A stretch of DNA of 64,000 bases from a virus. Within the stretch, counting starts at the first letter, position 1, and each line of letters begins with the position of its first letter. The notes beneath the pieces are model-generated. The model was not told the DNA's origin. It did not search any database and saw nothing but the letters and a program-made list of their open reading frames with translations. Position numbers and translations under genes: made by a program. This document shows positions 46,117-60,239 of the stretch, piece by piece. The stretch is from the IMG/VR virus record IMGVR_UViG_3300010883_000001, positions 32,001 through 96,000 of that record; one strand, given 5' to 3'.

Positions 46117-46885
46117 AAGAAAAATACGTTCTGCATCACGCCTACTAAAATATTCCCTCTCAGAGCTCAGGGATACAAAAAATCAGTTTGATACATATAA
46201 TGAAGACTTTTTAAGTGCTGTTGACCATGCTCGTAGAAACTTAAAAAAAGAAACCCGCGATTACGAGAAATTTAAAGAGCAGTCTGGATCTAGTGGTTCT
46301 ACTGAGCCGGCGGACAAGAATAAAGTTAAAGAGGAGACTATCAAGAAGGACAAGGAAGATCCCATCACGGAGACTGTCAATGATATGGATAGCCTTAAGT
46401 CAACAGTTGATCCGGTATATAGAAAATTATATAAAAAAATAGCGATGAAGACACATCCTGATAGAATGAAAACAATGTCGTGGTTGGAAGATTATGAAAA
46501 AGATGCGTTGGTTTCAATATTCCAGGAGGCAAGATCTTCATTAGAGAATGCTGATAAAAATGGATTGCTATGTTCTGCATGTGAAGTTGATATTGATCTA
46601 ATGCAGGTAGGGTTTAATGAAGATGATCTTTTACGTAGATTACAGAAGCAGGCAAAAAAATCAAGTGAAAATTTAAATAGCATATCAAGAAACTATATCT
46701 GGTCATGGGGTGAGACAAAAGATATAGTTACAAAGACGAAAATATTACAGGCATATATGCAACATTTAGGGTACCCTCAAATACCCGAGAGTCTTCTACG
46801 CGATGTTATTGATACATATCGTGACTCCACAGGCCGATCACGAAGAAAAGTTGGAAAAAGACCAAAAAGATTAATTAGACGTTGA
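46106..46885 (+). CDS. J-domain-containing protein
   Basis: YRKLYKKIAMKTHPDR (HPD motif) followed by a helix ending F.EA. Confidence 0.75.
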   Translation: MINERKIRSASRLLKYSLSELRDTKNQFDTYNEDFLSAVDHARRNLKKETRDYEKFKEQSGSSGSTEPADKNKVKEETIKKDKEDPITETVNDMDSLKSTVDPVYRKLYKKIAMKTHPDRMKTMSWLEDYEKDALVSIFQEARSSLENADKNGLLCSACEVDIDLMQVGFNEDDLLRRLQKQAKKSSENLNSISRNYIWSWGETKDIVTKTKILQAYMQHLGYPQIPESLLRDVIDTYRDSTGRSRRKVGKRPKRLIRR

Positions 46886-46910
46886 TCAATTTAATGTTTT
46901 ATTATATAAT
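46882..46910 (+). promoter_or_regulatory. Sigma70-like promoter heading the nucleotide/DNA-modification operon
   Basis: TTGATC-N17-TATAAT. ATG at 46916 lies 5 nt downstream (leaderless-type). Confidence 0.65.
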
Positions 46911-46915
46911 AAAAC

Positions 46916-47116
46916 ATGCAGACTTACACAACAAAACAAATAAAAGCAGCGATTGATGAAACCTTGCATAGGCATTCAACGCTACAGATTAATTTAGCAT
47001 CAAATAGAGCCAGGGAAGTTTTGGCATTAGAAATAATCCAAAAACTTAAACCTTATCTATCTCCTGCTGATCCAGCGGACGTTAGTAAGTTTTGGCCAAT
47101 GGATGAGGAGATATAG
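46916..47116 (+). CDS. Hypothetical protein
   Basis: 66-aa ORF containing QINLAS..ARE.LA. Confidence 0.55.
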   Translation: MQTYTTKQIKAAIDETLHRHSTLQINLASNRAREVLALEIIQKLKPYLSPADPADVSKFWPMDEEI

Positions 47117-47118
47117 GG

Positions 47119-47904
47119 ATGCCAGAAGGACCGGAAGTAAAGTTGTGTGGTGAGCGTTTAGCTTCAAATATTTCAGGTCAAACACTTAAATATATAGAGA
47201 TAATTTCAGGAAGATATTCTAAAAAGACACCTGGCGGAATTGAATTATTTGGAAAAGAATTGCCTACAACGGTTGTAGGTCCTGGTGTTCATGGGAAATT
47301 TATATATTGGATTATGAAAAATAATTATTTTCTATATAATACCCTGGGGTTAACCGGTGCATGGTCTTTGGAACAAGGTCCTTATTCTAGGGTTAAATTT
47401 TCATTTGAGAATCTAGATATTTTTTTTGATGATAAGAGAAATTTTGGCACTCTAAAGTTTGTTAAAGGAAAAGGGAATCTTTTATCAAAATTACAATCTT
47501 TAGGGCCAGATATGCTATCAGGGGACGTTGAAATATCTCTTTTTATTGATAGGCTAAGAGAGAAGAGCTCATGGGAAATTACAAAAGCATTAATGAACCA
47601 ATCCGTGGTTGCTGGGATTGGGAATTATATAAAATCGGAGTCACTATGGAAGACAAAAATTAATCCACACTCTAGGGTTTGTGATTTAGATAACGATACT
47701 TTAGCAGATCTATGCGTTAATATTAGAGATATAATGAGTGATAGCTATAAATCTCAAAAAGAAGGTGACAACTCGTTTAAATTATCGGTATATTCTAGGA
47801 AGAATGATCCTCATGATAATGAGATTATAAAGGAAAAAACAGAGGATGGTAGAACAACATACTGGTGTCCATCCGTACAACATAAAGGGACGATAAATGA
47901 ATAG
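47119..47904 (+). CDS. Fpg/Nei family DNA glycosylase/AP lyase
   Basis: N-terminal MPEGPEV, HGK, D.RNFG, LGPD, LMNQSVVAGIGNYIKSESL (H2TH), GRTTYWCP.VQ. Confidence 0.92.
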   Translation: MPEGPEVKLCGERLASNISGQTLKYIEIISGRYSKKTPGGIELFGKELPTTVVGPGVHGKFIYWIMKNNYFLYNTLGLTGAWSLEQGPYSRVKFSFENLDIFFDDKRNFGTLKFVKGKGNLLSKLQSLGPDMLSGDVEISLFIDRLREKSSWEITKALMNQSVVAGIGNYIKSESLWKTKINPHSRVCDLDNDTLADLCVNIRDIMSDSYKSQKEGDNSFKLSVYSRKNDPHDNEIIKEKTEDGRTTYWCPSVQHKGTINE

Positions 47905-48112
47905 TTTAAAACTTTCTGATGATACGATCGCACAAATTGCAAAAATATTGCAGGTTGCAATTCTTACTGGAACTGACGTGGTGGATAACCTTCGCCAGTT
48001 AGAGCTAGTTACTAGTGAGGACGGCCGGCTAACGATGTCTGAGGATTATGCAAAAAATTTCGAAACTAATATCACCTCGATGTTGGAGGGGATAAGCGAA
48101 GAAAATGGGTGA
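47897..48112 (+). CDS. Hypothetical protein
   Basis: 71-aa ORF overlapping both neighbours. Confidence 0.6.
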   Translation: MNSLKLSDDTIAQIAKILQVAILTGTDVVDNLRQLELVTSEDGRLTMSEDYAKNFETNITSMLEGISEENG

Positions 48113-48494
48113 TAAAAAAAAGGAGGATATGCTAATCAGCATATTCAGACTACGGGAAGAATTTATGCTAAGGATTAATGAGAAAATACCTGGTGTATAT
48201 CCCCCTTGGCCAGTCGTATTATCAGACAAGGCATCACAACAATCATTAAGAGAATCTGCACTTAAGGGTGTGGAGGAAATGTTTGAAGCATTACAACACT
48301 TAAAAAACTGGAAACCACATAGGGTAACAGAAATAAAAGAATTTAATAGAGAAGAGTTTCTTGAGGAGACTGTCGACGCATTTAATTATTTCTTTTCTTT
48401 GCTTGTTATGATGGGTGTTACACCTGAAGAGTTTTTTAATGCATATGTTAAGAAAGATACTACGATTCATAGAAGGCTAGAAGTAGGTTATTAA
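48105..48494 (+). CDS. All-alpha NTP pyrophosphatase (dimeric dUTPase/T4 dCTPase-like)
   Basis: EEMFEAL...NWKPH....EEFLEETVDAFNYF, an E..E / E..D metal motif with a WK motif. Confidence 0.75.
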   Translation: MGDKKKEDMLISIFRLREEFMLRINEKIPGVYPPWPVVLSDKASQQSLRESALKGVEEMFEALQHLKNWKPHRVTEIKEFNREEFLEETVDAFNYFFSLLVMMGVTPEEFFNAYVKKDTTIHRRLEVGY

Positions 48495-49516
48495 TGAATA
48501 TTATCGTGACCGGTGCTGCAGGTTTTATAGGGCAAAACCTTACTAAGTGTCTATTAGATTCAGGACATAAGGTTATTGGGATCGATAATTTCTCTACAGG
48601 CGATAAAAACGTTTTTAAAGAATTCTCTTCAGAATATAAGAGCAGTTTTTTACCAATGCCTTTTGACGTAACACGAGAAGATAGTTGGAGAACCATGCTG
48701 ACTGTTGTACACAGGTTTTTTCGGGGCCAAAAGGACATATCAATATATCATCTTGCATGTCCAGCGTCTCCTCCAGCATATCAAAAATATCCTCTTCGTA
48801 CATTGGATACTTCATACTTGGGTACTAGAAACTGTTTAGAGTTTGCTGCATCTGTAAATGCAAAATTTTTATTTGCTTCTACATCGGAAGTTTACGGAAA
48901 CCCGTCTTGTAATCCGCAGTCGGAAGAATATTACGGTGATGTAAATACCGTTGGCCCCAGGGCTTGTTACGATGAAGGAAAAAGGGTCGCTGAGACTCTA
49001 TGTTATGAGTATAATAAGTGTATGGGAACTGATGTGACGATTGTTAGAATATTCAACACGTATGGTCCTGGAATGAAAGCTGATGACGGCAGAGTTGTTA
49101 GCAACTTTATAAATCAGGCAATCACAGGTAAGGAATTAACGATATATGGTGATGGCTCACAGACTCGAAGTTTTTGTTTTGTATCTGATATGGTTGATGG
49201 ATTGATTTTAGCTATGGGATCTGAGTATTTTGGGCCGATTAATTTAGGGAACCCAAATGAGATTACTGTTTCCAAGTTAACAAATATAGTATTAGAAAAA
49301 TGTAATGCACGAAATGCTATTAATTATTACCCATTACCTCAGGACGATCCATGCATCAGGAGACCCAACATAAATAAAGCTAAGTGGTTATTGGGGTGGG
49401 TACCCAAAGTTAGTCTAGATGAAGGTCTAGATAGGACGATACAATACTTTAGAGGTCTTTTACGTGTAGAACCTCAAGAACCATCATATAATTTAAAAAT
49501 TGGTTATGAAAAATGA
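48494..49516 (+). CDS. uxs: UDP-glucuronate decarboxylase (UDP-xylose synthase)
   Basis: GAAGFIG, YHLACPASPPAYQ, ASTSEVYG.P...PQSEEYYG.VN.VGPRACYDEGKRVAETL, RIFNTYGP.M..DDGRVVSNF, YGDGSQTRSFCFVSD. Confidence 0.9.
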   Translation: MNIIVTGAAGFIGQNLTKCLLDSGHKVIGIDNFSTGDKNVFKEFSSEYKSSFLPMPFDVTREDSWRTMLTVVHRFFRGQKDISIYHLACPASPPAYQKYPLRTLDTSYLGTRNCLEFAASVNAKFLFASTSEVYGNPSCNPQSEEYYGDVNTVGPRACYDEGKRVAETLCYEYNKCMGTDVTIVRIFNTYGPGMKADDGRVVSNFINQAITGKELTIYGDGSQTRSFCFVSDMVDGLILAMGSEYFGPINLGNPNEITVSKLTNIVLEKCNARNAINYYPLPQDDPCIRRPNINKAKWLLGWVPKVSLDEGLDRTIQYFRGLLRVEPQEPSYNLKIGYEK

Positions 49517-52500
49517 AAAAAACACCCTCAAGATTCGTAGGTCTTCATGCACATTCTGGATTTTCTACATTTGATGGATTAGGATACCCTCAAGAACATA
49601 TTGATTATGTAAAATCAAATGGAATGGACTGTTGGGCACTTACTGACCATGGTCACATGAATGGTTTTGCACATGCTTATTTACATGCTGAAAAATTAAA
49701 AAAGCTTGGTGAGAATTTTAAATTTATTCCCGGGTGTGAAATGTATGTTCATCCGGATTTAGATGTATGGAGTCTAGACTACAAGCTAGCCCGGGCGGCA
49801 AAGCGAGGTGATCATGAGTCGATCACAAAACTTAGACAGCAAAGGGAGTCCATAGTAACCCCTATTCTTGCAGTAACCGATCGCGATGATGAGATTATAG
49901 ATGTTGATATAAATGAAGGAGGTATGACTGTAGAGAATGAGGAGGAGACTAAGTCTGCAAAATTTTATGATCCCGTTAAACGCCGGCATCATTTAGTTGT
50001 ACTACCTAGAACTAGTGAGGGTTTAAAACGTTTATTTTCATTGGTCTCCAAAGGTTATCTTGAGGGATTTTATAGATTTCCGCGTGTAGATTATAAGATG
50101 TTAAAAGAGGCCGCTAAAGGTGGTCATTTAATGCTTAGTACGGCATGCCTAGGAGGCCCCGTCGCATATGAAGTATTCAGGCATTTACAAGAAGTTTCAT
50201 TTAATAATCTTAATGCTTCTCTTTTAGATGATAGATCATTAATGGAGAAGACAATCCTTGGTGTTGGAAATGCATATGGATCACTGTGTGACGCAGTAGG
50301 GCGTGAGAACGTTATGCTTGAGTTACAGTTCAATAAACTCCCAGCTCAACATTTGGTGAATAGAGCTATACTTGAGTATTCTAGAAGAAACAATTTATCA
50401 GATCAATTAATAGTAACTTGCGACTCGCACTATGCAAATCCAGAACATTGGAAAGAGAGAGAATTATATAAGAAGTTAGGATGGTTAAATTATCGTGATT
50501 ATGATCCTTCTTCGTTACCACAAAGTCGCGACGATTTAGAGTGTGAATTATATCCGAAAAACGAAACACAGGTCTGGGATTCATATACAAATACATCTTC
50601 TGGGTATGATTTTTATAATGATGAAGAGATATGTAGCGCTATTGAGAGAACGCATGATATAGCACACGAAATGATAGGCGATATCACAGCCGATAAAAAA
50701 ATGAAGCTGCCGTCATATATAGTACCTCAAGGCACTGATGAAAACACGGCACTTCTAGAAGCTTGTAAAAAAGGATTAATAGAGAAGGGCTTACATGCTA
50801 ACAATGAATATATAGACCGCTTAAAGCTAGAGCTCTCTGTAATACGCAGTAAGGATTTTTCTAGATATTTTTTGACGATGAAGTCAATTCTTGATATTGC
50901 AAGAGAACGCATGTTGATAGGACCGGGTCGAGGATCCGCAGCTGGTAGTCTGGTTGCATATGTACTTGGAATAACAAACGTTGATCCTATAGAATATGGA
51001 TTATTGTTTGAAAGATTTTTATCTGTCCATCGTGAGGGCGCACCAGACATTGATACTGACGTAGGCGATAGGGATCTTCTGATTGATCTACTCAAGGCAA
51101 ATTTTGGTGATCAGAATGTTGTTCCTATTTCAAATTATAACACTTTTAAATTGAAATCATTAGTAAAAGATATATCACGTTTTTATGGTATACCCTTTGA
51201 CGAAGTAAATAAGGCACTGGCACCGGTTGAGAATGACGTAAAAAAAGTAGTCTTTACAAAGGGTACCGACAAAAACCTTTTCGTGTTATTGTATGAAGAT
51301 GCCATTGCACACTCGGCATCATTTCGAAGTTTTATTGAAAAGTATCCTGAGGTAGCTGAACCAATCGAAATTTTATTTAAGCAAAATAAGTCCTTGGGTC
51401 GACATGCTGGCGGAGTAATAATCAGTGAAAATATTCCGGAGCAGATGCCCTTGATACTCGCAAGGGGTGAGCTACAGACCCCTTGGGTCGAAGGGATGCA
51501 TTATAAACATCTGGAAGAGTTTGGGTGGATTAAATTTGATCTTCTTGGATTAGAAACCCTACGAATAATCCAACGTTGTATAGAGCTAGTTTTGAAGAGG
51601 CATGAGGGAAATGAGAACCCGACTTTTGTTGATGTGAAGAAATGGTTTGACCAAAACATGGATCCGAAAGTCATAGATTTTAATGATGAAGAAGTGTTTC
51701 GAAACATATATCATCAAGGAAAATGGGCTGGAATATTTCAGGCTACGCAACGAGGCGCACAGGCATTTTTTAAGAAAGGAAAGCCTTTGAGTATTATTGA
51801 TGTTGCTACGCTTACATCAATTTATCGCCCAGGTCCGTTAAGTGCTAATGTGCATAAGATATATTTGGGATCAAAGGACAATCCAGAAGATATAGATTAT
51901 CAACATGATCTTATTAAACAGGTTCTGGAACCGACATATGGTGCGATAATCTTTCAAGAGCAAGTTATGGAGTTATGCAACGTTGTAGCCGGTTTCCCTC
52001 AGGAAGACTGTGATAAGGTTCGTAGAACAATCATGAAGAGATCTGCGTCTAAGGCAGATGCTATGAAAGCCGAGGCTGAAGCTTTAAAGAACAGATTTGT
52101 TGAGGGTGCTGTCACAAATGGCGTGGCACAGGATGTTGCTAGCGAATTATATGAGAAAATCTTATTTTTCTCCGGATATGGTTTTAATAAATCTCATGCC
52201 GTATCTTACGCAGTTGATTCTTACTATTGCGCATGGTTGATGCACTACTATGAGGAGGAATGGCTGTGTGCTTATCTTGAGGCTATGTCAAGTACTCCGG
52301 ATAAGTTGGCAAAAGCATCTAGCGAGATTAAAAAGCTGGGATATAAGACGGTACCTCTAGACATAAATTATGCTGAAAAGACCTGGACAATATTAGACGG
52401 GAAGAAATTTATGCCATCATTCTTATCATGCAAAGGTATAGGACTAGCCGCAATCGACGAGATTATGAAAAATAGACCGTATAGCTCAGTTGATGATTTA

Positions 52501-53112
52501 CTATGGGATGAATCAGGTAAGTGGCGACATTCAAAGTTTAATAAGCGTGCGTTAGGCTCACTTATTCGTGTTTGTGCATTTGGGTCCATGGGCTTAGTTG
52601 GCGAAAGGAAGGCATTTTCTTCATATAAGCAGATGCACGAAATACTAATAGATAAAAACCAAGATATAAAAAAGTCAACAAGGAAAGATCCATGGAGAGG
52701 TAAAAAAGCAATGACTGAATTGCTGGTTGAATCAGATACTTCAAGCGAATGGACATCTTATGAGCTAGCAAAGAATAGTATTGAGCTGTTGGGATCATTT
52801 AGTTCGAAATTACTAGTGGATGACGAGTTACAAAAAGAGCTACAAAAAAGAGGCATTCACACAATTGATGAATATCACTCAAAAGACCTATATTGGTTTA
52901 TTGTAAAGAAGGCAATCCCAAAGTTGACAAAGAATAAAAAGCCGTATCTACTATTGACAATATCTGGTACTGAAGGATCGGAAAGTCGGATGTTCTACTG
53001 GGGATGGAATGGAAACACAGATATATCAGAGTTTTCAGTTTGTGTGGCAGAAATTGACAGGAGCGATTTTGGATTTTCAACTAGATCCGGAAAGATAAAG
53101 GTAATTAGATAA
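49513..53112 (+). CDS. dnaE: DNA polymerase III alpha subunit (family C)
   Basis: PHP domain HAH..FS.FDG, TDHG, GCE, DSHY. GPGRGSAAGSLVAY.LGIT, FERFL, PDIDTD, HAGG, KFDLLGL, YRPGP, YGFNKSHA. Confidence 0.95.
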   Translation: MKKTPSRFVGLHAHSGFSTFDGLGYPQEHIDYVKSNGMDCWALTDHGHMNGFAHAYLHAEKLKKLGENFKFIPGCEMYVHPDLDVWSLDYKLARAAKRGDHESITKLRQQRESIVTPILAVTDRDDEIIDVDINEGGMTVENEEETKSAKFYDPVKRRHHLVVLPRTSEGLKRLFSLVSKGYLEGFYRFPRVDYKMLKEAAKGGHLMLSTACLGGPVAYEVFRHLQEVSFNNLNASLLDDRSLMEKTILGVGNAYGSLCDAVGRENVMLELQFNKLPAQHLVNRAILEYSRRNNLSDQLIVTCDSHYANPEHWKERELYKKLGWLNYRDYDPSSLPQSRDDLECELYPKNETQVWDSYTNTSSGYDFYNDEEICSAIERTHDIAHEMIGDITADKKMKLPSYIVPQGTDENTALLEACKKGLIEKGLHANNEYIDRLKLELSVIRSKDFSRYFLTMKSILDIARERMLIGPGRGSAAGSLVAYVLGITNVDPIEYGLLFERFLSVHREGAPDIDTDVGDRDLLIDLLKANFGDQNVVPISNYNTFKLKSLVKDISRFYGIPFDEVNKALAPVENDVKKVVFTKGTDKNLFVLLYEDAIAHSASFRSFIEKYPEVAEPIEILFKQNKSLGRHAGGVIISENIPEQMPLILARGELQTPWVEGMHYKHLEEFGWIKFDLLGLETLRIIQRCIELVLKRHEGNENPTFVDVKKWFDQNMDPKVIDFNDEEVFRNIYHQGKWAGIFQATQRGAQAFFKKGKPLSIIDVATLTSIYRPGPLSANVHKIYLGSKDNPEDIDYQHDLIKQVLEPTYGAIIFQEQVMELCNVVAGFPQEDCDKVRRTIMKRSASKADAMKAEAEALKNRFVEGAVTNGVAQDVASELYEKILFFSGYGFNKSHAVSYAVDSYYCAWLMHYYEEEWLCAYLEAMSSTPDKLAKASSEIKKLGYKTVPLDINYAEKTWTILDGKKFMPSFLSCKGIGLAAIDEIMKNRPYSSVDDLLWDESGKWRHSKFNKRALGSLIRVCAFGSMGLVGERKAFSSYKQMHEILIDKNQDIKKSTRKDPWRGKKAMTELLVESDTSSEWTSYELAKNSIELLGSFSSKLLVDDELQKELQKRGIHTIDEYHSKDLYWFIVKKAIPKLTKNKKPYLLLTISGTEGSESRMFYWGWNGNTDISEFSVCVAEIDRSDFGFSTRSGKIKVIR

Positions 53113-54200
53113 TGCGGGTCTTAGTAGTCGGAGGAGGTATATTTGGTACCACGATAGCATCAGAACTATCAGAGCATGGAAATGATGTAACATTAATTGA
53201 AAAAGAAAATACCTTGATGACGGCAGCCAGCAGGGTAAATCATAATCGTGTTCATTTTGGCTATCACTATCCTCGTAGTCCAGAGACGGCAAGACAATGT
53301 CTAGACAGCATTCCCAGTTTTTTAATGCATTATGGTGATTCTGTAGTATCGGATTTCCCTAACTATTATACGATTGCTAATGAAGGTAGCTTCGTAACCC
53401 CGGAACAGTTTATTGATTTTTGTAAAGAGGTTAAAATTGATTTCTACGAACAATATCCACCTAAGCATCTTCTTAGAAGAGACAAGCTAGCAGCTAGCTT
53501 TAGGGTAAGAGAGCCTATTTTTAGTACCAGTCGATTAGCACAGCTAGTTAACGATCGATTAGATCGAGCAGGTGTGAACGTTCTTGTAAGGACACAAATT
53601 ACTAAGGCTAAGAAAAATCCTGGAGGTGGATACTCTGTAATGATAAATGGTGCTAGGTGTATATTTGATAAGGTTATTAATGCAACATACGCCGGCCTGA
53701 ATACTGTAAATAAGGTGTTTAATGTCCGGCCTCATGAACTACGGTTTGAGGAGACAGTAGTACCAGTATTCAAGTTCAGTCACACACCTGTTGGGCTGAC
53801 TATAATGGATGGTCCCTATTGTACTATAATGCCTCATGGAAATATTTCGGAAGAGTTTTTACTTTGGCATGTTGATGGCGGAGTTTTATCTCATGCTACT
53901 GACATTAAAAATATTCGTAGGGTTGTGTCATCTGATGAAGAGATCGCGGCTCGTATAATTGAGATGTCTGCTGAGTTTATGCCTTTTATGGAGGGCGTGG
54001 AATTTCTTTCATTGATGAAAACAGTAAAGACTGTCTATGAGAATAAGTATGATGCAAGAATGTCTGAGGTTCATACGTACGACGACAGTCCGGACTTTAT
54101 CTCAGTATTATCTGGGAAGATAATGTGTGCACCTCAGATTTCATATCAGGTTCGAGAATTAGTTAGGGGTAAGAAGTATCACAGGAGTATTTTGGTATGA
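53112..54200 (+). CDS. FAD-dependent oxidoreductase (DAO-like, type found in sugar biosynthesis clusters)
   Basis: VLVVGGGIFG...VTLIEK, AS..NHNRVH.GYHYPRS, INATYA, MDGP. Confidence 0.8.
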   Translation: MRVLVVGGGIFGTTIASELSEHGNDVTLIEKENTLMTAASRVNHNRVHFGYHYPRSPETARQCLDSIPSFLMHYGDSVVSDFPNYYTIANEGSFVTPEQFIDFCKEVKIDFYEQYPPKHLLRRDKLAASFRVREPIFSTSRLAQLVNDRLDRAGVNVLVRTQITKAKKNPGGGYSVMINGARCIFDKVINATYAGLNTVNKVFNVRPHELRFEETVVPVFKFSHTPVGLTIMDGPYCTIMPHGNISEEFLLWHVDGGVLSHATDIKNIRRVVSSDEEIAARIIEMSAEFMPFMEGVEFLSLMKTVKTVYENKYDARMSEVHTYDDSPDFISVLSGKIMCAPQISYQVRELVRGKKYHRSILV

Positions 54201-54862
54201 TAAAGAATATACTAATTTTTGGTGCATCTGGTTATGTGGCACGTCATTTTAGCGAAAAATATTTTAATCATTATAATATTATTCACTTTGCTAGAGAAGA
54301 TTTTGATTTTTTGAGACCTGATTTTGAAAAATTGGTTGAAAATTTAATCGAGAAACTTCAACATTTACGGCAACCACGACATGGCGGCGTAGATGGGATT
54401 GTGTTTTTGCAAGGAATTAACCCCTCATTTGGAGTAAGTGACATAGATGATAATCAGTTTCATGATATGTTAAGTATAAATTTATCAGTACCACTTCAGG
54501 TTATTAGGCAAATTAAAGACTGGATTAATAAAAGTGCATCAATCACATTTATATCATCCATTGCAAGAAAGAAAGGGAGTTATGATCCGAGCTATGCTTC
54601 TGCAAAAGCGGGGCTGGTTGGACTTCAGCAGGCTTTGTCAAATCATTTTTCTGATATTCGTTTTAATACGATATCACTCGGGTTGGTTGGGGGATCCCCT
54701 GTTCACGAGGGAATGACAGATGATTTTGCCCTTAAACATCTAGATGCCATGGGAGGAAAATTGGTAAAAGTTGATGATGTTTGTAAAGCTATAGGTTTTT
54801 TGATAGAATGTGATAGTATTTCTCGCGCGATTATTCCAATTGATAGAGGGTTTAAGTTATGA
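54197..54862 (+). CDS. Short-chain dehydrogenase/reductase
   Basis: GASGYVA, INL, ISS, YASAK (YxxxK). Confidence 0.85.
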   Translation: MIKNILIFGASGYVARHFSEKYFNHYNIIHFAREDFDFLRPDFEKLVENLIEKLQHLRQPRHGGVDGIVFLQGINPSFGVSDIDDNQFHDMLSINLSVPLQVIRQIKDWINKSASITFISSIARKKGSYDPSYASAKAGLVGLQQALSNHFSDIRFNTISLGLVGGSPVHEGMTDDFALKHLDAMGGKLVKVDDVCKAIGFLIECDSISRAIIPIDRGFKL

Positions 54863-55389
54863 GTGATCAAAAGATCATAATCTTTGATGGTCCGGACGGG
54901 TGTGGAAAGACAAATATCGCAGCTGCGTTGTCAAGACTTCTAGATATTCCCGTTTTTAAGAATGAATTTGAATGGGATCATTTTAATCTTGGCTCAAGTA
55001 ATGATTATTTTATTAAAGCAATAGAATATCAGCACCCCTACGTGTTATCTTTCTTAAAGCAAACCAGACATTCAGCAATATTTGATAGGGCTCATCCTTC
55101 TGAGTTTGCATACTCCCGCGTATTTGAGAGAACAACAAGTTGGAGGGCTTTAAAGATGTGTGATGATATGAGTGCTGAAATGTCTGTAAAAATAATTATT
55201 CCCTATCGCACAAATTATGAAAATGTCGATGATGAGTTTGGGGTAAATCCCATAAAGCTAGTAGAGATTGAATCCGAGTATAGAGCATTTGCTAAGTGGA
55301 CCAAGTGTGATGTAATGTGGTTAAATGTTGATGATGAAGATTTAGATAGGGAAATTAAGGAAATCGTTGATTTTTTGGAGATGGTATAA
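54859..55389 (+). CDS. dNMP kinase (thymidylate-kinase-like)
   Basis: IIFDGPDGCGKT P-loop, IFDRAHPSEFAY. Confidence 0.8.
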   Translation: MSDQKIIIFDGPDGCGKTNIAAALSRLLDIPVFKNEFEWDHFNLGSSNDYFIKAIEYQHPYVLSFLKQTRHSAIFDRAHPSEFAYSRVFERTTSWRALKMCDDMSAEMSVKIIIPYRTNYENVDDEFGVNPIKLVEIESEYRAFAKWTKCDVMWLNVDDEDLDREIKEIVDFLEMV

Positions 55390-56420
55390 TGAGGGTACTG
55401 TTTAGTTATTGGGGATTTTGTGAGAGCTTTGAAGACTGTAACGAACCGAATACACCTGATGGATCTAGATTCACTAGACCGATGTTTGTTAATGCACTTA
55501 CGATTGCAGGGCACCAGGTAACATCTCTACAAAAAAGAAGAGAGAAAAATGAGTACCCCGGGATTACATATGATCCAGTTGGTTTACCTGATGGTGATAT
55601 TTTATTTATTGAGTGGCGCTGGAAGACGTGGAAAAATTTTGGTGATACTAAATTTGAGAATGATTATGACAGGCAAATCGAATTATTGCAACACTATCAT
55701 GGAGAGGTACCCGTCGTAATATGGGACTGTGATATGAAATTGACGTCTGAGGATGAGAATAGGTGGCCTGAGGCTATCATTGCTGACCCTACAATGGACC
55801 CTAAGCAACTTACCAGAAAGAGGGCTAGGTTACCATTTTCATCAGATCTGAAATTTTTAGTTGAGCCGTATGAAGACCCGGTTAGGTATGGGTATATCGG
55901 GAACAATTACGAGCGAGATGAGATGTTTGAAAAATATTATAATTGTCCCGCAAAATCTCTTAGGCCGGAAGGAATTCAAACATCAGTTTTTGGAAACTGG
56001 CTTCTGCGATCTCCGGAGAGAATGTCTCCTGAACATGTAACGAAGAAATTTCGTAATATTGCGTTTATTGATAGGGTTGGGTTTACTGAATCCATGCAGC
56101 AGTTGAGAAAATTCATATGTACTACACATATCACAAAGCCAGAGTATGCAAAGAGGGGATTTGTCTCGCCTAGGTATCTTGAGAATATAGCAACATGTAC
56201 TCCTTCATTGGTACCTTGTGAGTTTATGATGAATAATATTTTAGGAAATAATTGGATGGCATCAAGCTCAGGCAGTGTTGTCAAGGCTGTAAGATATTTG
56301 AGATGTCTTTTACCAGAAGATCGTGCTGCGGTTGTTGATGAGCAAAGGTATAATTTGAGAAATAACCTGAATGTTGATGTTAAGCAAACAGTTGAGTTTT
56401 TAGAGGGTTTGATAAAATGA
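55389..56420 (+). CDS. GT-B glycosyltransferase resembling T4 DNA beta-glucosyltransferase
   Basis: C-terminal YIGN, VFGNW, RVGF..S...L......HI..PEY...GFVSPRYLE.......LVP.EF parallels the UDP-binding domain of T4 BGT as recalled (NY.DNFITLRVWE.......LI..EF). Confidence 0.6.
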   Translation: MRVLFSYWGFCESFEDCNEPNTPDGSRFTRPMFVNALTIAGHQVTSLQKRREKNEYPGITYDPVGLPDGDILFIEWRWKTWKNFGDTKFENDYDRQIELLQHYHGEVPVVIWDCDMKLTSEDENRWPEAIIADPTMDPKQLTRKRARLPFSSDLKFLVEPYEDPVRYGYIGNNYERDEMFEKYYNCPAKSLRPEGIQTSVFGNWLLRSPERMSPEHVTKKFRNIAFIDRVGFTESMQQLRKFICTTHITKPEYAKRGFVSPRYLENIATCTPSLVPCEFMMNNILGNNWMASSSGSVVKAVRYLRCLLPEDRAAVVDEQRYNLRNNLNVDVKQTVEFLEGLIK

Positions 56421-57412
56421 AAAAATCAGTATTAATTACTGGAGGTTGTGGCTTTATAGGGGGCAATCTTGTAAAAGCACTATACAATAAGGGATGGGTT
56501 GTTGATGTTGTTGATCACAGTGTAGAGATAGATCCGGATATATTTTCCCATGATGGAAAAAATGTGACGAGAATTTGTCCGGCTGCGTTAATGCCAGCGT
56601 TACAAAAAAGGGATAGAGAAGACAAAATATTAGTAATAACGTCTGATTTTACTGACGAAAATATTTTGAAGAAAATTTCTAATAAAAAATATGATATAGT
56701 TTTTCATATGGCCGCTGAACCCCGAGTGGGGTTTAGTGTTAAAGATCCTGTCTTTACAACTGAAGAGAACTTGTTTAAGACAGTTGTGTTGTTTAAGGCC
56801 TGTGCTGATGCTGGTACAAAGGTTGTATTTTCCTCCTCATCAGCAGTTTACGGAAATGCTGATCAACTACCCACCAGCGAAGATTGCAAAAAGAAACCAG
56901 CATCCCCATATGCATTGCAGAAGTTACATGCGGAGGATTACGCAAGGTTATTTAGCGACTTGTATGACTTAGATGTTGTATGTCTGAGGTATTTTAACGT
57001 ATTTGGCCCCGGGGCTCTAGGCAGTTCTCCTTACGCAACGGCAGTTGCTGCATGGTGCCAGGCAATATATGATGGAAACACATTACGAAGTGATGGTGAC
57101 GGAGAGCAAACGCGGGATCTTGTTTATGTGGATGATATTGTAAGAATTAATATTGCCCTAGGGAAAAGTGCTAAAAACTTTAAAGGCGATTGTTATAATG
57201 TTTGTACCGGTAAGTCATATAGCAATAATTACGTATTATCTAGGTTTAGGGAAAAATTTTCTAATTTAGAGATCGTTTCTGCTCCTGCTCGTATTGGAGA
57301 CGTTAAACATACTTTAGGTGATACCAGTAAGGCAACAAATGATCTTGGATTTGAGGTTGTACATGATTTCGATGATGCTTTAAAGGCAACATGGGCATGG
57401 TGGGGATTTTAG
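56417..57412 (+). CDS. NAD-dependent NDP-sugar epimerase (GalE/WbpP-like extended SDR)
   Basis: TGGCGFIG, FHMAA, SSSSAVYG, SPYALQK, LRYFNVFGP, GDGEQTRD..YVDD, R.GDVKHT.GD. Confidence 0.9.
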   Translation: MKKSVLITGGCGFIGGNLVKALYNKGWVVDVVDHSVEIDPDIFSHDGKNVTRICPAALMPALQKRDREDKILVITSDFTDENILKKISNKKYDIVFHMAAEPRVGFSVKDPVFTTEENLFKTVVLFKACADAGTKVVFSSSSAVYGNADQLPTSEDCKKKPASPYALQKLHAEDYARLFSDLYDLDVVCLRYFNVFGPGALGSSPYATAVAAWCQAIYDGNTLRSDGDGEQTRDLVYVDDIVRINIALGKSAKNFKGDCYNVCTGKSYSNNYVLSRFREKFSNLEIVSAPARIGDVKHTLGDTSKATNDLGFEVVHDFDDALKATWAWWGF

Positions 57413-57422
57413 GGGAAAAAAA

Positions 57423-58412
57423 TTGCATATTGTCTCTCATTCGTTTAACGACTGCTATAATCAGTTGGCGAAATATTTGTTAACAAGCGGGGAATATGAT
57501 GTATCCCCTAGAGGCCAGAGGGTTAGAGAATCTTTATGCGTAAGTTTTAAGATTGAAAACCCTAGGGATAGACTAATCTATAATCCGGCGAGAAAATTTT
57601 CTTTCACATATGTTATAGCGGAGATGCTTTGGTATATTTCTGGAAATAATAAAACGTCGTGGATATCTCATTATTCTAAATTTTGGAATAAAATATCTGA
57701 TGATGGTAAGACGGCCAACTCTGCATATGGTGCTAGGATATTTGAGAAAAATGAAAGAATCGCAGGATCCCAATTTATTCAGTGGGATTTTATAAAGGAG
57801 GAGTTAAGAAAAGATCCGGATTCTAGAAGGGCAATAATTCATATCCGCGTTCCGGAGGATTCTATAAAGGCAAAGCTTGATGTCCCCTGTACAATATCAA
57901 TACAATACTTTATAAGATCTGAAAAATTACATTGCATAGTCAATATGAGATCTTCTGACTTAATTTTAGGGATAAGCTACGATATTCCTGCGTTCACATT
58001 TATGCAGGAGATGATGGCAAATGAATTGGGGGTTGATGTAGGCTCTTATATGCATGTCAGTAATTCATTGCATGTATACGAGAGACATTTTGATATGCTA
58101 GAAAAGATAGCATCAACAGAAAATATTAATAAGTCTTATTCATTAAGTTCAGGAGCTAGAAAACTTAAATTACCACAGGGTGATCTACCCATATATAGTT
58201 TAATGCAGTTTGAGGACGCTATGCGAAAAACCACCCATAATAAAACCGCATTAGATTTATTAGATTCATCGATTTGTTTATTCGATGATTATTGGAATGA
58301 TTGGCTACGAGCGCTAGCAGCGCATAGGGTTCTTAAAAATGGTGATAAACATCTTCACGATAATATATTATATAGGTGTGATCGCTTGAGGGGGTGTTAT
58401 GAGAGATCCTGA
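57423..58412 (+). CDS. Thymidylate-synthase-fold enzyme with cytosine-type Asp (probable dCMP hydroxymethylase/hydroxylase/methylase)
   Basis: YGAR, D.DSRRA, PC (C156), MRSSD...GISYD (D187 at the position of TS Asn177 / T4 gp42 Asp179), SLHVY. Confidence 0.8.
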   Translation: MHIVSHSFNDCYNQLAKYLLTSGEYDVSPRGQRVRESLCVSFKIENPRDRLIYNPARKFSFTYVIAEMLWYISGNNKTSWISHYSKFWNKISDDGKTANSAYGARIFEKNERIAGSQFIQWDFIKEELRKDPDSRRAIIHIRVPEDSIKAKLDVPCTISIQYFIRSEKLHCIVNMRSSDLILGISYDIPAFTFMQEMMANELGVDVGSYMHVSNSLHVYERHFDMLEKIASTENINKSYSLSSGARKLKLPQGDLPIYSLMQFEDAMRKTTHNKTALDLLDSSICLFDDYWNDWLRALAAHRVLKNGDKHLHDNILYRCDRLRGCYERS

Positions 58413-58992
58413 GTTTATAATTTTTACTGGACCAATGTTCGGTTCAAAAACTACTAGAATGCTAGCATGTGTAGACAGGTATAGATACCAGCATAAACTT
58501 ATTGCAGTATTTAAACCAAAGATAGATGATAGATACGAGACTGATAAAATTAAAACACATTCAGGTTTGTCTATACAGGCGCACTGCGTCGAGTCAGGTT
58601 ACGAGATTGCTGATATTATAACTAAAATTGAGCTAGCGTCACTTAAGAGAGTTGACGTGATTGCCGTTGATGAAGCTTTTATGATTGAAGGATGCTCGTC
58701 GACGCTAATTCAATTGTTTAAAACAGGATACACAATCGTAATTGCGTCGATACAATTATCGGCCACCGGCGAGCCATTTAATGAAATTAAAGATATTCTG
58801 CCATGGGGGACAAGAGTTGAGGTTTGTCCAGCAGTATGTTCTAGGACTGGCGAAGATGCATATTATACATTTAGAAAAGTTGAATGTTTGGATAGCATTA
58901 TGATTGGAGGTTCTGATATGTATGAGGCCAGGTGTTGGTCAAGTCATCCTGGACTGAATTCCTTGGAGAAATTAAATGATAGAGCCATCTAG
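58399..58992 (+). CDS. tdk: Thymidine kinase
   Basis: TGPMFGSKT, FKP.ID.RY, THSG, VDEAF, IGG..MYEARC. Confidence 0.88.
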   Translation: MRDPEFIIFTGPMFGSKTTRMLACVDRYRYQHKLIAVFKPKIDDRYETDKIKTHSGLSIQAHCVESGYEIADIITKIELASLKRVDVIAVDEAFMIEGCSSTLIQLFKTGYTIVIASIQLSATGEPFNEIKDILPWGTRVEVCPAVCSRTGEDAYYTFRKVECLDSIMIGGSDMYEARCWSSHPGLNSLEKLNDRAI

Positions 58993-59830
58993 CGTTGATT
59001 GCGTAATATATCATGCTGACTGTACTGACGGCTTTGGGGCAGCCTACGCAGCATGGAAACTTTTAGGAAACAAGGCAGATTATTATGCGTGTAAGCATGG
59101 CTCAGTCCCACCAGATGTATCGGGTAAAAGAGTTGTAATTCTAGATTTTTCTTTTAATAATGAGATTACAAAAGCAATGATTGACACAGCGGATGGTTTG
59201 ATAGTCATTGATCATCATAAGTCGGCCATGGTAGAATTGCATGATATTACGGATGCTATATTCAATATGAGTAAATCTGGAGCCATGCTAGCATGGGAAT
59301 TTTTTCATCCGGGAAAAGAGCCACCAAAGTTTATTTCGTACATAGAGGATCGTGATCTGTGGAAGTGGGAGTTACCATATTCAAAAGAGTTCGCTGCAGC
59401 TTTTGATATGGTTCCTTTCGAGTTTGAAGAGTTTGAGAAGTTTGAAGATGACTCTGTTTTTGATGATGCTGTAAAACGAGGAAGTTACATACTGGCGTAT
59501 TCAAAAACGGTAGTTAAAAAAGTCTCTGAGAAGGCATCACCAAGAAGATTAAACGGAAAGAGCATATTGGTCGTAAATGCTTCACATTGGATGTCGGAAA
59601 TAGGCGCCAGGCTTTCTCCCGATTGTGATGTTGCAATGATCTGGTATTATGATCATATTGATAAAATGATAAAGGTTAGCTTAAGATCTTTTCATGACAC
59701 CGTTGATGTCTCCGAGGTCGCAAAGAAATTTGGCGGAGGTGGGCATAAAAAGGCTGCTGGTTTTATACTTCCTGGAGATGCTGTCGTGGATGATATTTTT
59801 GACGATGAGGTTAAGAATGAAGAAGTTTAG
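58976..59830 (+). CDS. DHH/DHHA1 phosphoesterase
   Basis: YH.DC.DG, LDFS, IDHH, D.DLW, SLRS, GGGGH..AAG. Confidence 0.88.
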   Translation: MIEPSSVDCVIYHADCTDGFGAAYAAWKLLGNKADYYACKHGSVPPDVSGKRVVILDFSFNNEITKAMIDTADGLIVIDHHKSAMVELHDITDAIFNMSKSGAMLAWEFFHPGKEPPKFISYIEDRDLWKWELPYSKEFAAAFDMVPFEFEEFEKFEDDSVFDDAVKRGSYILAYSKTVVKKVSEKASPRRLNGKSILVVNASHWMSEIGARLSPDCDVAMIWYYDHIDKMIKVSLRSFHDTVDVSEVAKKFGGGGHKKAAGFILPGDAVVDDIFDDEVKNEEV

Positions 59831-60239
59831 GCCTGGATGGGATGCGATTTGGCTTAAGTTTGCGCATCTAATATCTGAGAGAAGTTATGATGATCGGTAC
59901 AAGGTAGGTGCCATTGTAGTTTCGATCGACAATACACAGGTTCTTGCAGTGGGATATAATGGAAATTATTCTGGTGGTCCAAATGAAGCAGACTCAGCTG
60001 AACCAGGCAAATCAGGATTTATTCATGCTGAGATTAATGCATTACTTAAGTGCGACTATAATTATCACAAAGTTAAAAAACTATATGTTACACTATCACC
60101 GTGCATGATGTGTGCTAAGGCCATTATTAATGCCGGAATCTCAGAGGTGATTTATGATGATGAGTATAGAGATACGGCCGGAATTCAGCTTATGAAGGAT
60201 ACAGGAATTGTCGTTAGGAGAGTAAACAATTATTCTTGA
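59817..60239 (+). CDS. dCMP deaminase
   Basis: VGA.VV, GYNG, HAEINA, TLSPC..CAKAIINAGI. Likely start is ATG 59817 (GAGG SD) rather than 59694. Confidence 0.9.
   Translation: MKKFRPGWDAIWLKFAHLISERSYDDRYKVGAIVVSIDNTQVLAVGYNGNYSGGPNEADSAEPGKSGFIHAEINALLKCDYNYHKVKKLYVTLSPCMMCAKAIINAGISEVIYDDEYRDTAGIQLMKDTGIVVRRVNNYS

What the first reader, a model, noticed from the sequence alone, without database searches (positions are those of the whole stretch)
46882..60239. Candidate new DNA cytosine-hypermodification operon: UDP-xylose/arabinose route, BGT-like transferase and embedded DnaE
Seen: one sigma70-like promoter (46882-46910) heads ~15 genes with overlapping or near-abutting stops and starts. 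They are Fpg/Nei, dCTPase/dUTPase-like, UDP-glucuronate decarboxylase, DnaE, FAD oxidoreductase, SDR, dNMP kinase, BGT-like GT-B, NDP-sugar epimerase, Asp-type TS homologue, TK, DHH and dCMP deaminase. Established: T4 builds glucosyl-hmC with this same logic (gp56 dCTPase removes dCTP, gp42 modifies dCMP, gp1 kinase phosphorylates it, BGT glycosylates DNA). UXS converts UDP-GlcA to UDP-xylose, and a C4-epimerase can convert that to UDP-L-arabinose. Inference: the phage replaces C with 5-hydroxymethyl- (or 5-hydroxy-) C and adds a self-made pentose (xylose, L-arabinose, or a derivative tailored by the FAD oxidase/SDR pair). I know of no described xylosyl-C base, nor such a pathway in a phage replicating with a family C polymerase. 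The likely role is anti-restriction/anti-CRISPR.
Basis: partly seen in the sequence, partly recalled or inferred. Interest (0 to 1): 0.92.

Follow-up and report, generated by a model that had tools for sequence, protein, structure and literature searches.

The report
Phage sugar-hydroxymethylcytosine DNA pathway, pentose variant
An uncultured marine giant phage carries a tightly packed gene block that most likely replaces cytosine in its DNA with hydroxymethylcytosine and attaches a sugar, probably a xylose-derived pentose it makes itself. This is a new variant of a known anti-restriction strategy, and no chemistry has been measured.

Summary
There are 15 co-directional, abutting genes at 46916-60239 with the stated families.

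**Components identified**
- The ThyA homologue has the T4 gp42 active-site signature (Asp143, Asp169, Asp177). This signature is kept in 48 of 50 family rows (47 of 49 relatives plus the window). It lacks the D169N mark of 5-hydroxycytosine synthases.
- ThyX lies elsewhere on the contig, so dTMP synthesis is covered separately.
- The transferase is a GT-B fold. Its best structural match, and its only PDB sequence match, is T4 beta-glucosyltransferase.
- The pyrophosphatase resembles gp56, and the kinase is a homologue of RB69 gp45.
- One SDR is a clear UDP-xylose synthase (human UXS1, E 3.5e-94).

**Survey of relatives**
- The core DnaE-kinase-GT-hydroxymethylase occurs in 49 IMG/VR loci.
- The sugar genes are swappable: galactopyranose mutase, a second epimerase, UXS, or an FAD/SDR pair.
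- The window's set (UXS plus FAD/SDR) is rare.
- The FAD/SDR pair is a two-gene module shared with Bacteroidota polysaccharide loci.
- The 4-epimerase also occurs in related phages that lack the module, so it is weak evidence for arabinose.

**Verdict**
- Glycosyl-5hmC is very likely. A pentose is plausible at about 50%. The exact sugar is unknown.
- This scan had already found the same core on other genomes. A pentose on phage cytosine is published (Thanatos, RB69), but by another route.
- I class it as a new variant of a known kind.

The parts
46882..46910 (+). sigma-70-like motif TTGATC-17-TATAAT in the 30-base gap before the first gene
   Evidence: It matches 10 of 12 positions, but such motifs are at chance frequency in the region, so function is not shown.
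46916..47116 (+). 66-aa ORF, no family
47119..47904 (+). Fpg/Nei DNA glycosylase/AP lyase, N-terminus MPEGPEV
   Evidence: H2TH 1.4e-15, N- and C-terminal domains. Conserved upstream in relatives.
47897..48112 (+). 71-aa conserved small ORF, unknown
   Evidence: tblastn found relatives in 22 of 49 loci
48105..48494 (+). all-alpha NTP pyrophosphohydrolase, gp56-like (inferred dCTPase/dUTPase)
   Evidence: Pfam dUTPase_2 1.2e-4. PHROG nucleotide pyrophosphohydrolase 4e-16. Family profile against RB69 gp56: hhalign probability 89.5%, E 1.9e-6, C-terminal 64 columns.
48494..49516 (+). UDP-glucuronate decarboxylase (UDP-xylose synthase)
   Evidence: Human UXS1 structures E 3.5e-94 over residues 2-325. 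The STSEVYG and YDEGK motifs are kept.
49513..53112 (+). DnaE-type (family C) DNA polymerase
   Evidence: PHP, DNA_pol3_alpha, finger and HHH_6 domains. At most about 30% identical to DnaE of cultured phages.
53112..54200 (+). FAD-dependent oxidoreductase, DAO/GlpD/sarcosine-oxidase fold, substrate unknown
   Evidence: Pfam DAO 7.7e-21. Model pLDDT 92.4. Foldseek: glycine oxidase, GlpD, sarcosine oxidase, TM about 0.77. Homologues lie in Bacteroidota polysaccharide loci.
54197..54862 (+). classical short-chain dehydrogenase/reductase, partner of the FAD enzyme
   Evidence: Pfam adh_short. 41% and 37% identical to the SDRs beside the FAD homologues in Mucilaginibacter and Sphingobacteriia loci.
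54859..55389 (+). P-loop nucleotide kinase (inferred 5hm-dCMP kinase), homologue of RB69 gp45
   Evidence: PHROG thymidylate kinase 4.2e-9. Family profile against RB69 gp45: probability 96.6%, E 7e-10, 157 columns. Found beside the GT in 48 of 49 loci.
55389..56420 (+). GT-B glycosyltransferase of an unnamed phage family, closest to T4 beta-glucosyltransferase
56417..57412 (+). GalE-type UDP-sugar 4-epimerase, substrate not determined
   Evidence: PDB: UDP-GlcNAc/UDP-hexose 4-epimerases, 1e-46 to 1e-33. NCBIfam galE 6e-43, below its cut-off. Orthologues also occur in relatives without GT/TS.
57423..58412 (+). ThyA-family dCMP hydroxymethylase (5hm-dCMP synthase), MilA-like C-terminal extension
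   Evidence: Best PDB match is MilA CMP hydroxymethylase, 3.4e-41. The residues at E. coli positions 126,127,143,146,147,166,167,169,177 read RRDCTRSDD, identical to T4 gp42.
58399..58992 (+). thymidine kinase
   Evidence: Pfam TK 9.3e-33
58976..59830 (+). DHH/DHHA1 phosphoesterase
   Evidence: Pfam DHHA1 and DHH. PHROG DHH phosphoesterase 8e-76.
59817..60239 (+). dCMP deaminase (HAE and PCxxC motifs). The longest ORF starts at 59694; the likely start is near 59817.
   Evidence: Pfam dCMP_cyt_deam_1 4e-19; translation; 139-aa relative in L006

Best explanation
The block is a T4-like, pre-replicative cytosine-replacement pathway joined to a DNA glycosyltransferase and a phage-made sugar donor.

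**Proposed steps**
1. The gp56-like pyrophosphatase turns dCTP into dCMP (inferred).
2. The ThyA homologue converts dCMP to 5-hydroxymethyl-dCMP (strongly inferred from its active-site residues).
3. The gp45-like kinase and host NDP kinase raise it to the triphosphate (inferred).
4. The phage DnaE builds it into DNA (inferred).
5. UXS makes UDP-xylose from host UDP-glucuronate (strong homology).
6. The BGT-like GT transfers a sugar to 5hmC in DNA (inferred from fold, profile match and synteny).

**The sugar**
- In this lineage the sugar is probably xylose or a xylose-derived pentose. It could be L-arabinose through the 4-epimerase, or another isomer made by the FAD-oxidase/SDR-reductase pair.
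- That pair looks like an oxidise-then-reduce sugar-tailoring module borrowed from Bacteroidota polysaccharide loci.

**Supporting genes and role**
- dCMP deaminase, ThyX (elsewhere on the contig) and TK supply dTMP.
- The likely role is protection of phage DNA from restriction and CRISPR nucleases.
For: **Hydroxymethylase**
- Signature RRDCTRSDD equals T4 gp42 and differs from RB69 gp48 (RRECTRSND) and E. coli ThyA (RRLCHRSDN). It is kept in the window, L006 and 46 further relatives.
- The best solved relative is MilA.
- ThyX is present at contig 120643-121266, so dTMP synthesis does not need this enzyme.

**Glycosyltransferase**
- The profile hits only T4 BGT in the PDB.
- R262/E265 align with BGT R269/E272.
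- The family is all but absent from 185,579 cellular genomes, with one 5-kb fragment only.

**Other components**
- Pyrophosphatase against gp56: probability 89.5%.
- Kinase against RB69 gp45: probability 96.6%.
- UXS against human UXS1: E 3.5e-94.

**Synteny in 49 IMG/VR loci**
- Kinase 48, DnaE 48, TS 46.
- UXS always lies within about 7 kb of the GT where present. It is directly adjacent in L002 and forms UXS-FAD-SDR-kinase-GT in L071.
- FAD-SDR sits directly upstream of kinase-GT in four lineages.
- The only two extended SDRs, and the only GT found on the 145-kb contig, lie in this block.

**Precedent**
- Phage GTs on 5hmC depend on a partner sugar enzyme for their donor (bioRxiv 10.1101/2023.12.21.572611).
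Against: - No chemistry exists for this phage or any relative.
- GT-B matches within about 2 Z units of BGT include PimA, TarM and BshA. The BGT sequence match is marginal and covers only the C-terminal part.
- The DNA acceptor is inferred from context only.
- No UDP-glucose dehydrogenase is on the contig. The contig is only about 52% of the genome, so UDP-glucuronate must come from the host or from the missing half.
- Orthologues of the epimerase occur in related phages that lack GT, kinase and TS. It may be a backbone gene and not part of the donor route.
- Most relatives have no UXS.
- The substrate of the FAD/SDR pair is unknown.
- The specificity of the pyrophosphatase and of the kinase is inferred.
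Confidence: 0.55

Rival explanations
1. The core is the same (5hmC plus the BGT-like GT), but the sugar on DNA is not a pentose. The GT uses a hexose-type donor, such as UDP-galactose from the epimerase or a host UDP-sugar. UXS and FAD/SDR then serve another purpose or only a second decoration.
For: - Most relatives with the same GT family have no UXS. Instead they carry the epimerase alone (10), the epimerase plus UDP-galactopyranose mutase (18), or a second GalE-like enzyme (10).
- The UGM-bearing GTs form one clade, which points to galactose-type donors in much of the family.
- Known phage GT-epimerase pairs give Hex, HexNAc or HexA on 5hmC.
Against: - UXS is an accessory gene found only next to this module.
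- No other glycan target, GT or sugar gene is seen on the contig.
- The window's GT lies on a long separate branch with its UXS+FAD/SDR relative. This fits a changed donor.
Confidence: 0.2
2. The GT and sugar genes glycosylate something other than DNA, such as virion proteins or a host surface polymer. The DNA then carries bare 5hmC.
For: - The GT-B fold is shared with many non-DNA transferases at nearly equal Z.
- The FAD/SDR pair comes from polysaccharide loci.
- Phage GTs can modify capsids or host serotype (stated in PMC12619734).
Against: - In 48 of 49 loci the GT lies beside the kinase, and in 46 beside the hydroxymethylase, next to DnaE. T4 has the same arrangement, with b-gt beside gene 42.
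- The only PDB sequence match is BGT.
- The family is not found in cellular polysaccharide loci.
- There are no signal peptides or membrane genes in the block (not tested specifically).
Confidence: 0.1
3. Glycosylation takes place on the free nucleotide before replication. The GT would act on 5hm-dCMP, the adjacent kinase would phosphorylate the glycosylated nucleotide, and the dedicated DnaE would incorporate it.
For: - The kinase is always adjacent to the GT.
- RB69, DLP3 and RL38J1 keep a homologous extra kinase beside their first GT although they also have a gp1-type kinase.
- The block is built around its own polymerase.
Against: - In every characterised case the sugar is added to DNA after replication (T4; DLP3 and RB69 in PMC13326640).
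- BGT, the closest relative, acts on DNA.
- No other NMP kinase was found on the contig, so this one is needed for plain 5hm-dCMP anyway.
Confidence: 0.07
4. It is a 5-hydroxycytosine (glycosyl-5hoC) pathway like that of RB69, DLP3 and Thanatos.
For: - The kinase is a homologue of RB69 gp45.
- The ThyA homologue is MilA-like, as are DLP3 gp80 and RB69 gp48 in structure searches.
- Those phages carry a pentose on cytosine.
Against: - Asp169 is kept in the window and in every relative, whereas every tested 5hodCMP synthase has Asn there.
- No arabinose-5-phosphate route is present: no NTP_transferase was found on the contig.
- The GT shows no similarity to RB69 gp46:47.
Confidence: 0.03

Closest known systems
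Phage T4 glucosyl-5-hydroxymethylcytosine system (gp56 dCTPase, gp42 dCMP hydroxymethylase, gp1 kinase, alpha- and beta-glucosyltransferase)
   Same: - Pre-replicative route through a ThyA-family hydroxymethylase with identical diagnostic residues.
- A gp56-like pyrophosphatase.
- A GT-B transferase whose nearest solved relative is BGT.
- The GT gene lies next to the hydroxymethylase gene.
- dCMP deaminase and TK are present.
   Different: - The replicase is DnaE, not family B.
- The kinase is not gp1-like; it is RB69 gp45/Tmk-like.
- The hydroxymethylase has a MilA-like C-terminal extension.
- The phage encodes its own sugar-nucleotide enzymes (UXS, 4-epimerase, FAD/SDR), so the donor is probably not host UDP-glucose.
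Arabinosyl-5-hydroxycytosine pathway of RB69, DLP3, HY126 and Thanatos (PMC13326640; PMC12838424)
   Same: - A pentose on cytosine C5 substituent.
- A homologous extra nucleotide kinase beside the first GT and the ThyA homologue.
- The phage makes its own UDP-pentose.
   Different: - Those enzymes carry D169N and hydroxylate C5 with a flavin; here Asp169 is kept.
- Their donor is UDP-D-arabinofuranose made from ribulose-5-phosphate. Here UXS would give UDP-xylose from UDP-glucuronate.
- The GTs are unrelated in sequence.
Phage MT/TET gene clusters with GT plus partner epimerase on 5hmC (bioRxiv 10.1101/2023.12.21.572611; Cell Rep 2024)
   Same: A DNA GT whose donor is supplied by a neighbouring phage sugar enzyme, with varied glycans on 5hmC.
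   Different: - There 5hmC is made on DNA after replication by a methyltransferase and a TET-like dioxygenase.
- The products reported are Hex, HexNAc, HexA and heptose. No pentose, UXS or FAD/SDR pair is reported.
Uxs/Uxe route to UDP-xylose and UDP-L-arabinose in Sinorhizobium meliloti (Gu et al. 2011, as cited in PMC6024577)
   Same: A UXS plus a GalE-type 4-epimerase. This route was once proposed, and not found, for RB69.
   Different: - Here it sits in a phage DNA-modification block.
- The epimerase's substrate is untested, and its orthologues occur in phages without the module.
Rhizobium phage RL38J1 and Pootjesviridae (UDP-galactopyranose mutase supplying Galf to DNA; PMC13326640)
   Same: 18 relatives of this window carry a UGM gene between the hydroxymethylase and the GT. 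This shows the same principle of phage-made unusual donors.
   Different: - RL38J1 uses 5hoC.
- The window itself has no UGM.
DprE1/DprE2 decaprenylphosphoryl-ribose 2'-epimerase (own knowledge, analogy only)
   Same: An FAD oxidase plus an SDR reductase that together invert one sugar hydroxyl through a keto intermediate.
   Different: - DprE1 has a VAO-type fold; the enzyme here has a DAO/GlpD-type fold.
- No homology is shown and the substrate is unknown.

Membership tests
T4-type 5hmC replacement pathway | ThyA-family enzyme with Asp at E. coli position 177 (cytosine), acidic residue at 143 (water access) and Asp at 169 | tested here: met
   D177, D143 and D169. The whole nine-residue signature equals T4 gp42, in the window and in 47 of 49 relatives.
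T4-type 5hmC replacement pathway | dCTPase that removes dCTP from the pool | tested here: inconclusive
   A MazG/dUTPase_2-like protein is present. Its family profile matches RB69 gp56 at probability 89.5% over the C-terminal half. Substrate not testable.
T4-type 5hmC replacement pathway | kinase that phosphorylates 5hm-dCMP | tested here: inconclusive
   A P-loop kinase is present and is the only NMP-kinase candidate on the contig. It is a homologue of RB69 gp45. A comparison with T4 gp1 was not run.
T4-type 5hmC replacement pathway | virion DNA in which C is replaced by 5hmC or its glycoside | not testable with these tools
   Needs nucleoside LC-MS.
T4 beta-glucosyltransferase-like DNA glycosyltransferases | GT-B fold with the C-terminal UDP-binding Arg/Glu pair | tested here: met
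T4 beta-glucosyltransferase-like DNA glycosyltransferases | acceptor is 5hmC in duplex DNA | not testable with these tools
   Only context: it lies beside the kinase and hydroxymethylase in 46-48 of 49 loci.
5hodCMP synthase / glycosyl-5hoC pathway (PMC13326640) | D169N substitution in the ThyA homologue | tested here: not met
   Asp is kept in all 50 family members. The RB69 gp48 control shows Asn.
5hodCMP synthase / glycosyl-5hoC pathway (PMC13326640) | arabinose-5-phosphate isomerase, kinase/uridylyltransferase and HAD phosphatase route to UDP-Araf | tested here: not met
   No NTP_transferase on the contig, and none of these families in the block. The contig is only about half of the genome.
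UDP-glucuronate decarboxylase (UXS) | extended SDR with close full-length similarity to characterised UXS and its STSEVYG / YxxxK catalytic motifs | tested here: met
   Human UXS1 E 3.5e-94 over residues 2-325. The next family scores E 1e-35.
UDP-xylose 4-epimerase (Uxe) | GalE-type SDR that interconverts UDP-Xyl and UDP-L-Ara | tested here: inconclusive
   The GalE/WbpP-type fold and the SxnYxxxK motif are present. There is no marker for pentose specificity. Orthologues occur in phages without the module.

The most novel reading that the evidence does not exclude
The phage's DNA carries 5-hydroxymethylcytosine bearing a pentose that no nucleic acid is known to carry. The pentose would be made from UDP-xylose and re-shaped by a previously undescribed FAD-oxidase/SDR-reductase two-enzyme sugar epimerase. 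That epimerase would also work in Bacteroidota polysaccharide synthesis. This phage would be one state of a large marine jumbo-phage family that swaps sugar cassettes on a fixed hmC-GT core.
Probability: 0.25. Interest if true: 0.8.

Novelty: new variant of a known kind. Interest (0 to 1): 0.62.

Why it matters
Sugar-coated cytosines are a main way for phages to escape restriction enzymes and CRISPR nucleases, and each new sugar changes which host defences work.

If the reading is right, it would add:
- the first UXS-based (UDP-glucuronate to UDP-xylose) donor route for DNA glycosylation;
- a new transferase family related to T4 BGT;
- an uncharacterised FAD/SDR sugar-tailoring pair shared with bacterial polysaccharide loci.

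The survey shows a widespread family of uncultured aquatic DnaE jumbo phages. Their fixed hydroxymethylase-kinase-GT core is combined with exchangeable sugar genes. This is a natural series for studying how DNA glycans diversify in the arms race. It is also a source of enzymes for tagging 5hmC with different sugars.

Tried and rejected
**No match**
- Megablast of the block against cultured phages found nothing.
- tblastn of the GT and of the kinase against cultured phages found nothing.
- The kinase and the pyrophosphatase gave no useful PDB sequence match on their own. Family profiles were needed.

**Considered and rejected**
- The ThyA homologue's best phage hits include dUMP hydroxymethylases of SPO1-like phages, which suggested a thymine pathway. 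This was rejected because SP-10 has Asn177 and the window has Asp.
- The GT family was compared with RB69 gp46:47. No similarity was found.
- The FAD enzyme as a UDP-galactopyranose mutase was rejected. It has no GLF domain, and its fold is DAO/GlpD-type.

**Absent from the contig (about half a genome)**
- No UDP-glucose dehydrogenase, NTP_transferase, Thymidylate_kin, Glycos_transf_1, GLF or Tet_JBP.
- The Tet_JBP control rang nowhere, so that blank says nothing.

**Other**
- Sequencing-run search: no RNA holder was listed. Three marine or seawater DNA runs hold half or more of the sampled words.
- The 'moraphage' paper (PMC12619734) mentions no DnaE or thymidylate synthase, so I could not tell whether it describes this lineage.

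Full report
**Setting**

The window is bases 32001-96000 of a 145-kb IMG/VR viral contig that CheckV rates about 52% complete, so the phage is probably a jumbo phage. Near-identical DNA is held by marine and seawater metagenomes. No cultured phage is close. Megablast finds nothing, the DnaE is at most about 30% identical to DnaE of cultured phages, and the GT and the kinase have no tblastn match at all.

**Observation**

Fifteen ORFs on the + strand run from 46916 to 60239. Their junctions range from a 17-base overlap to a 10-base gap.

The promoter-like motif is at the stated place. However, such motifs are as frequent in shuffled sequence (63 against 58.2 +/- 7.6). The genes upstream are co-directional too, so the operon limits are not established. 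The deaminase probably starts near 59817, not 59694.

**The base-modifying enzyme**

The ThyA homologue's best solved relative is the CMP hydroxymethylase MilA (E 3.4e-41, full length including the C-terminal extension). I aligned it with E. coli ThyA, T4 gp42, RB69 gp48, phage G gp319 and the SP-10 dUMP hydroxymethylase. I then extended the alignment to 46 relatives from IMG/VR plus L006.

At E. coli positions 126,127,143,146,147,166,167,169,177 the sequences read:

| Sequence | Residues |
|---|---|
| Window and 47 of 49 relatives | RRDCTRSDD |
| T4 gp42 | RRDCTRSDD |
| E. coli ThyA | RRLCHRSDN |
| RB69 gp48 | RRECTRSND |
| SP-10 dUMP hydroxymethylase | RQDCNRSDN |

According to PMC13326640:
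- Asp177 selects cytosine.
- An acidic residue at 143 goes with a non-methyl product.
- D169N marks the flavin-dependent 5-hydroxy-dCMP synthases, and every D169N enzyme tested made 5hodC.

The window keeps Asp169. Arg126/Arg127 and Ser167 are of the deoxy-nucleotide type, unlike MilA's Lys and Ala (the meaning of these two MilA residues is from my own memory of the MilA structure paper). A complete ThyX lies elsewhere on the contig, so dTMP synthesis does not depend on this enzyme.

**The transferase**

The 343-aa protein has no Pfam, PHROG or NCBIfam match. It belongs to a family of at least 197 metagenomic proteins.
- A profile of 26 members hits only T4 beta-glucosyltransferase in the whole PDB sequence set (E 0.004, C-terminal 89 residues).
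- hhalign gives the same stretch (E 0.0017), with the family's invariant R262 and E265 opposite BGT R269 and E272.
- The AlphaFold model is confident (pLDDT 93.6) and is a GT-B fold.
- A pattern scan of 185,579 prokaryote genomes found one fragment on a 5-kb MAG contig and nothing else. The family is essentially confined to phages.

**The other pathway parts**

- A profile of the 129-aa pyrophosphatase family matches RB69 gp56, the dCTPase/dUTPase, at probability 89.5% over its C-terminal half up to the shared terminal Gly-Tyr.
- A profile of the kinase family matches RB69 gp45 over its whole length (probability 96.6%, E 7e-10). gp45 is the unexplained 'nucleotide kinase' that lies beside the first arabinosyltransferase and the ThyA homologue in RB69, DLP3 and RL38J1.
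- No other thymidylate-kinase-like gene is on the contig.

**The sugar genes**

- The 340-aa SDR matches human UXS1 at E 3.5e-94 over its full length and keeps the catalytic motifs. The next family scores 1e-35. I regard it as a UDP-xylose synthase.
- The 331-aa SDR is a GalE/WbpP-type 4-epimerase whose substrate cannot be read from sequence.
- The FAD enzyme has the glycine-oxidase/GlpD/sarcosine-oxidase fold.

The homologues of the FAD enzyme outside this phage family lie in Bacteroidota:
- In a Mucilaginibacter O-antigen-type locus and a Sphingobacteriia capsule locus, the FAD homologue (41-42% identical) lies one gene away from, or next to, an SDR that is 41% and 37% identical to the window's SDR.
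- The two genes therefore travel as a pair in sugar-polymer loci. This supports a role in sugar tailoring.
- An oxidise-then-reduce inversion of one hydroxyl is the simplest chemistry, but that is inference.

These are the only extended SDRs on the contig. No Glycos_transf_1-family GT, galactopyranose mutase, sugar nucleotidyltransferase or UDP-glucose dehydrogenase was found there.

**Relatives**

A scan of IMG/VR with the GT profile gave 49 loci, 35-54% identical, on contigs of up to 280 kb. Within 10 kb of the GT I found:

| Gene | Loci (of 49) |
|---|---|
| Kinase | 48 |
| DnaE | 48 |
| Hydroxymethylase | 46 |
| Epimerase | 43 |
| dCMP deaminase | 43 |

The remaining sugar genes differ from lineage to lineage:
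- epimerase alone: 10 loci;
- epimerase plus UDP-galactopyranose mutase (GLF, E 1e-67 to 1e-79): 18 loci;
- epimerase plus a second GalE-like enzyme: 10 loci;
- UXS in five further lineages (L002, L030, L060, L062, L071);
- UXS plus mutase in one of these (L030);
- a B12-radical SAM enzyme in one (L063).

UXS plus FAD/SDR occurs in the window, in its 71% relative L006 and in L071, where the order is UXS-FAD-SDR-kinase-GT. L072 has FAD-SDR-kinase-GT with no extended SDR at all.

On a GT tree the mutase-bearing loci form one clade, and the window and L006 form another on a long stem. Related phages share labels by descent, so this is not proof of co-adaptation.

The picture is a fixed hmC-GT core with exchangeable donor-sugar cassettes. 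It parallels the GT-plus-epimerase clusters shown experimentally to put Hex, HexNAc or HexA on 5hmC, and the mutase of RL38J1.

**A caution on arabinose**

A scan with the epimerase profile found its orthologues (46-51% identical) in related phages. These carry DnaE, TK, DHH and deaminase but no GT, kinase or hydroxymethylase within 10 kb (L073, L074, L075, L077).
- Earlier follow-ups of this scan on other genomes had reached the same view, that the epimerase is a backbone gene of the group.
- The epimerase therefore cannot carry the inference 'UDP-xylose to UDP-L-arabinose'.
- What is specific to this lineage is UXS and the FAD/SDR pair.
- L062 has UXS without the epimerase. Xylose itself, or an FAD/SDR-made isomer, is as likely as arabinose.

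**Comparison with what is known**

- T4 provides the closest working model and the closest relatives of three parts.
- A pentose on phage cytosine is published, but on 5-hydroxycytosine and from ribulose-5-phosphate (PMC13326640). For Thanatos the pentose has an unsettled structure (PMC12838424).
- A Uxs/Uxe route was proposed for RB69 in 2018 and not found there (PMC6024577).
- I found no paper that holds UDP-xylose together with phage DNA hypermodification other than that one.
- This scan had already found the DnaE-hydroxymethylase-kinase-GT core on at least five other genomes.
- The cultured Bacillus phage G has an Asp-type ThyA homologue, an annotated alpha-glucosyltransferase, a thymidylate kinase and a deaminase near its DnaE. 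The claim 'no such pathway in a phage with a family C polymerase' is therefore doubtful at the genomic level.

**Verdict**

- The core reading (5hmC replacement plus DNA glycosylation) is well supported by sequence, structure and synteny. I put it near 0.8.
- The reading that the sugar here is a xylose-derived pentose is about even odds.
- The role of FAD/SDR is open.
- I class it as a new variant of a known kind. Nothing has been measured.

Noticed in passing
contig C1:120643-121266 (outside the window, about 24.6 kb beyond its end): A complete ThyX (Pfam Thy1 1.3e-48). With dCMP deaminase and TK it gives the phage its own dTMP supply, independent of the ThyA homologue.
   Followed up: partly
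L035-L050, L053, L064 (e.g. L039:8855-9985): Eighteen relatives carry a UDP-galactopyranose mutase gene directly between the hydroxymethylase and the GT. This predicts galactofuranosyl-5hmC DNA in that clade. L030 combines the mutase with UXS, which would fit UDP-L-arabinofuranose.
   Followed up: partly
L063:8760-10004: A distant relative has a B12-binding radical SAM enzyme directly upstream of the GT, in the place where others have sugar genes.
   Followed up: no
L017:6001-8278 and L018:3759-5508: The FAD-oxidoreductase/SDR pair recurs in Bacteroidota O-antigen or capsule loci. In Mucilaginibacter a methyltransferase lies between the two genes. It looks like an uncharacterised two-enzyme sugar-tailoring module in bacteria as well, and hints weakly at a Bacteroidota host.
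   Followed up: partly
L013 (Bacillus phage G, NC_023719 227466-240398): Cultured phage G has an Asp177/Asp143/Asp169 ThyA homologue (gp319), an annotated alpha-glucosyltransferase (gp313), a thymidylate kinase (gp315) and a dCMP deaminase (gp317) a few kb from its DnaE (gp329). The layout resembles this block.
   Followed up: partly
L073:9098-9970: Related phages without GT, kinase or hydroxymethylase have a 290-aa protein of no known family between DnaE and the epimerase, in the place of the module.
   Followed up: no
L002:15236-16297, L030:13257-14291 and nine other loci: A GMP reductase/IMPDH-family gene lies next to the hydroxymethylase in 11 relatives. It is absent from the window.
   Followed up: no
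window 62998-63690: A 230-aa protein with only the C-terminal domain of Fe/Mn superoxide dismutase (E 7.5e-4). It is conserved downstream of the block in many relatives (L003, L071, L072, L073).
   Followed up: no
window 47119-47904 and relatives L003:2511-3738, L006:1304-2522: Fpg/Nei with an intact catalytic N-terminus is conserved upstream of the block. In relatives an HhH-GPD glycosylase gene precedes it. Why a phage with modified cytosine keeps two base-excision enzymes here is unexplained.
   Followed up: no
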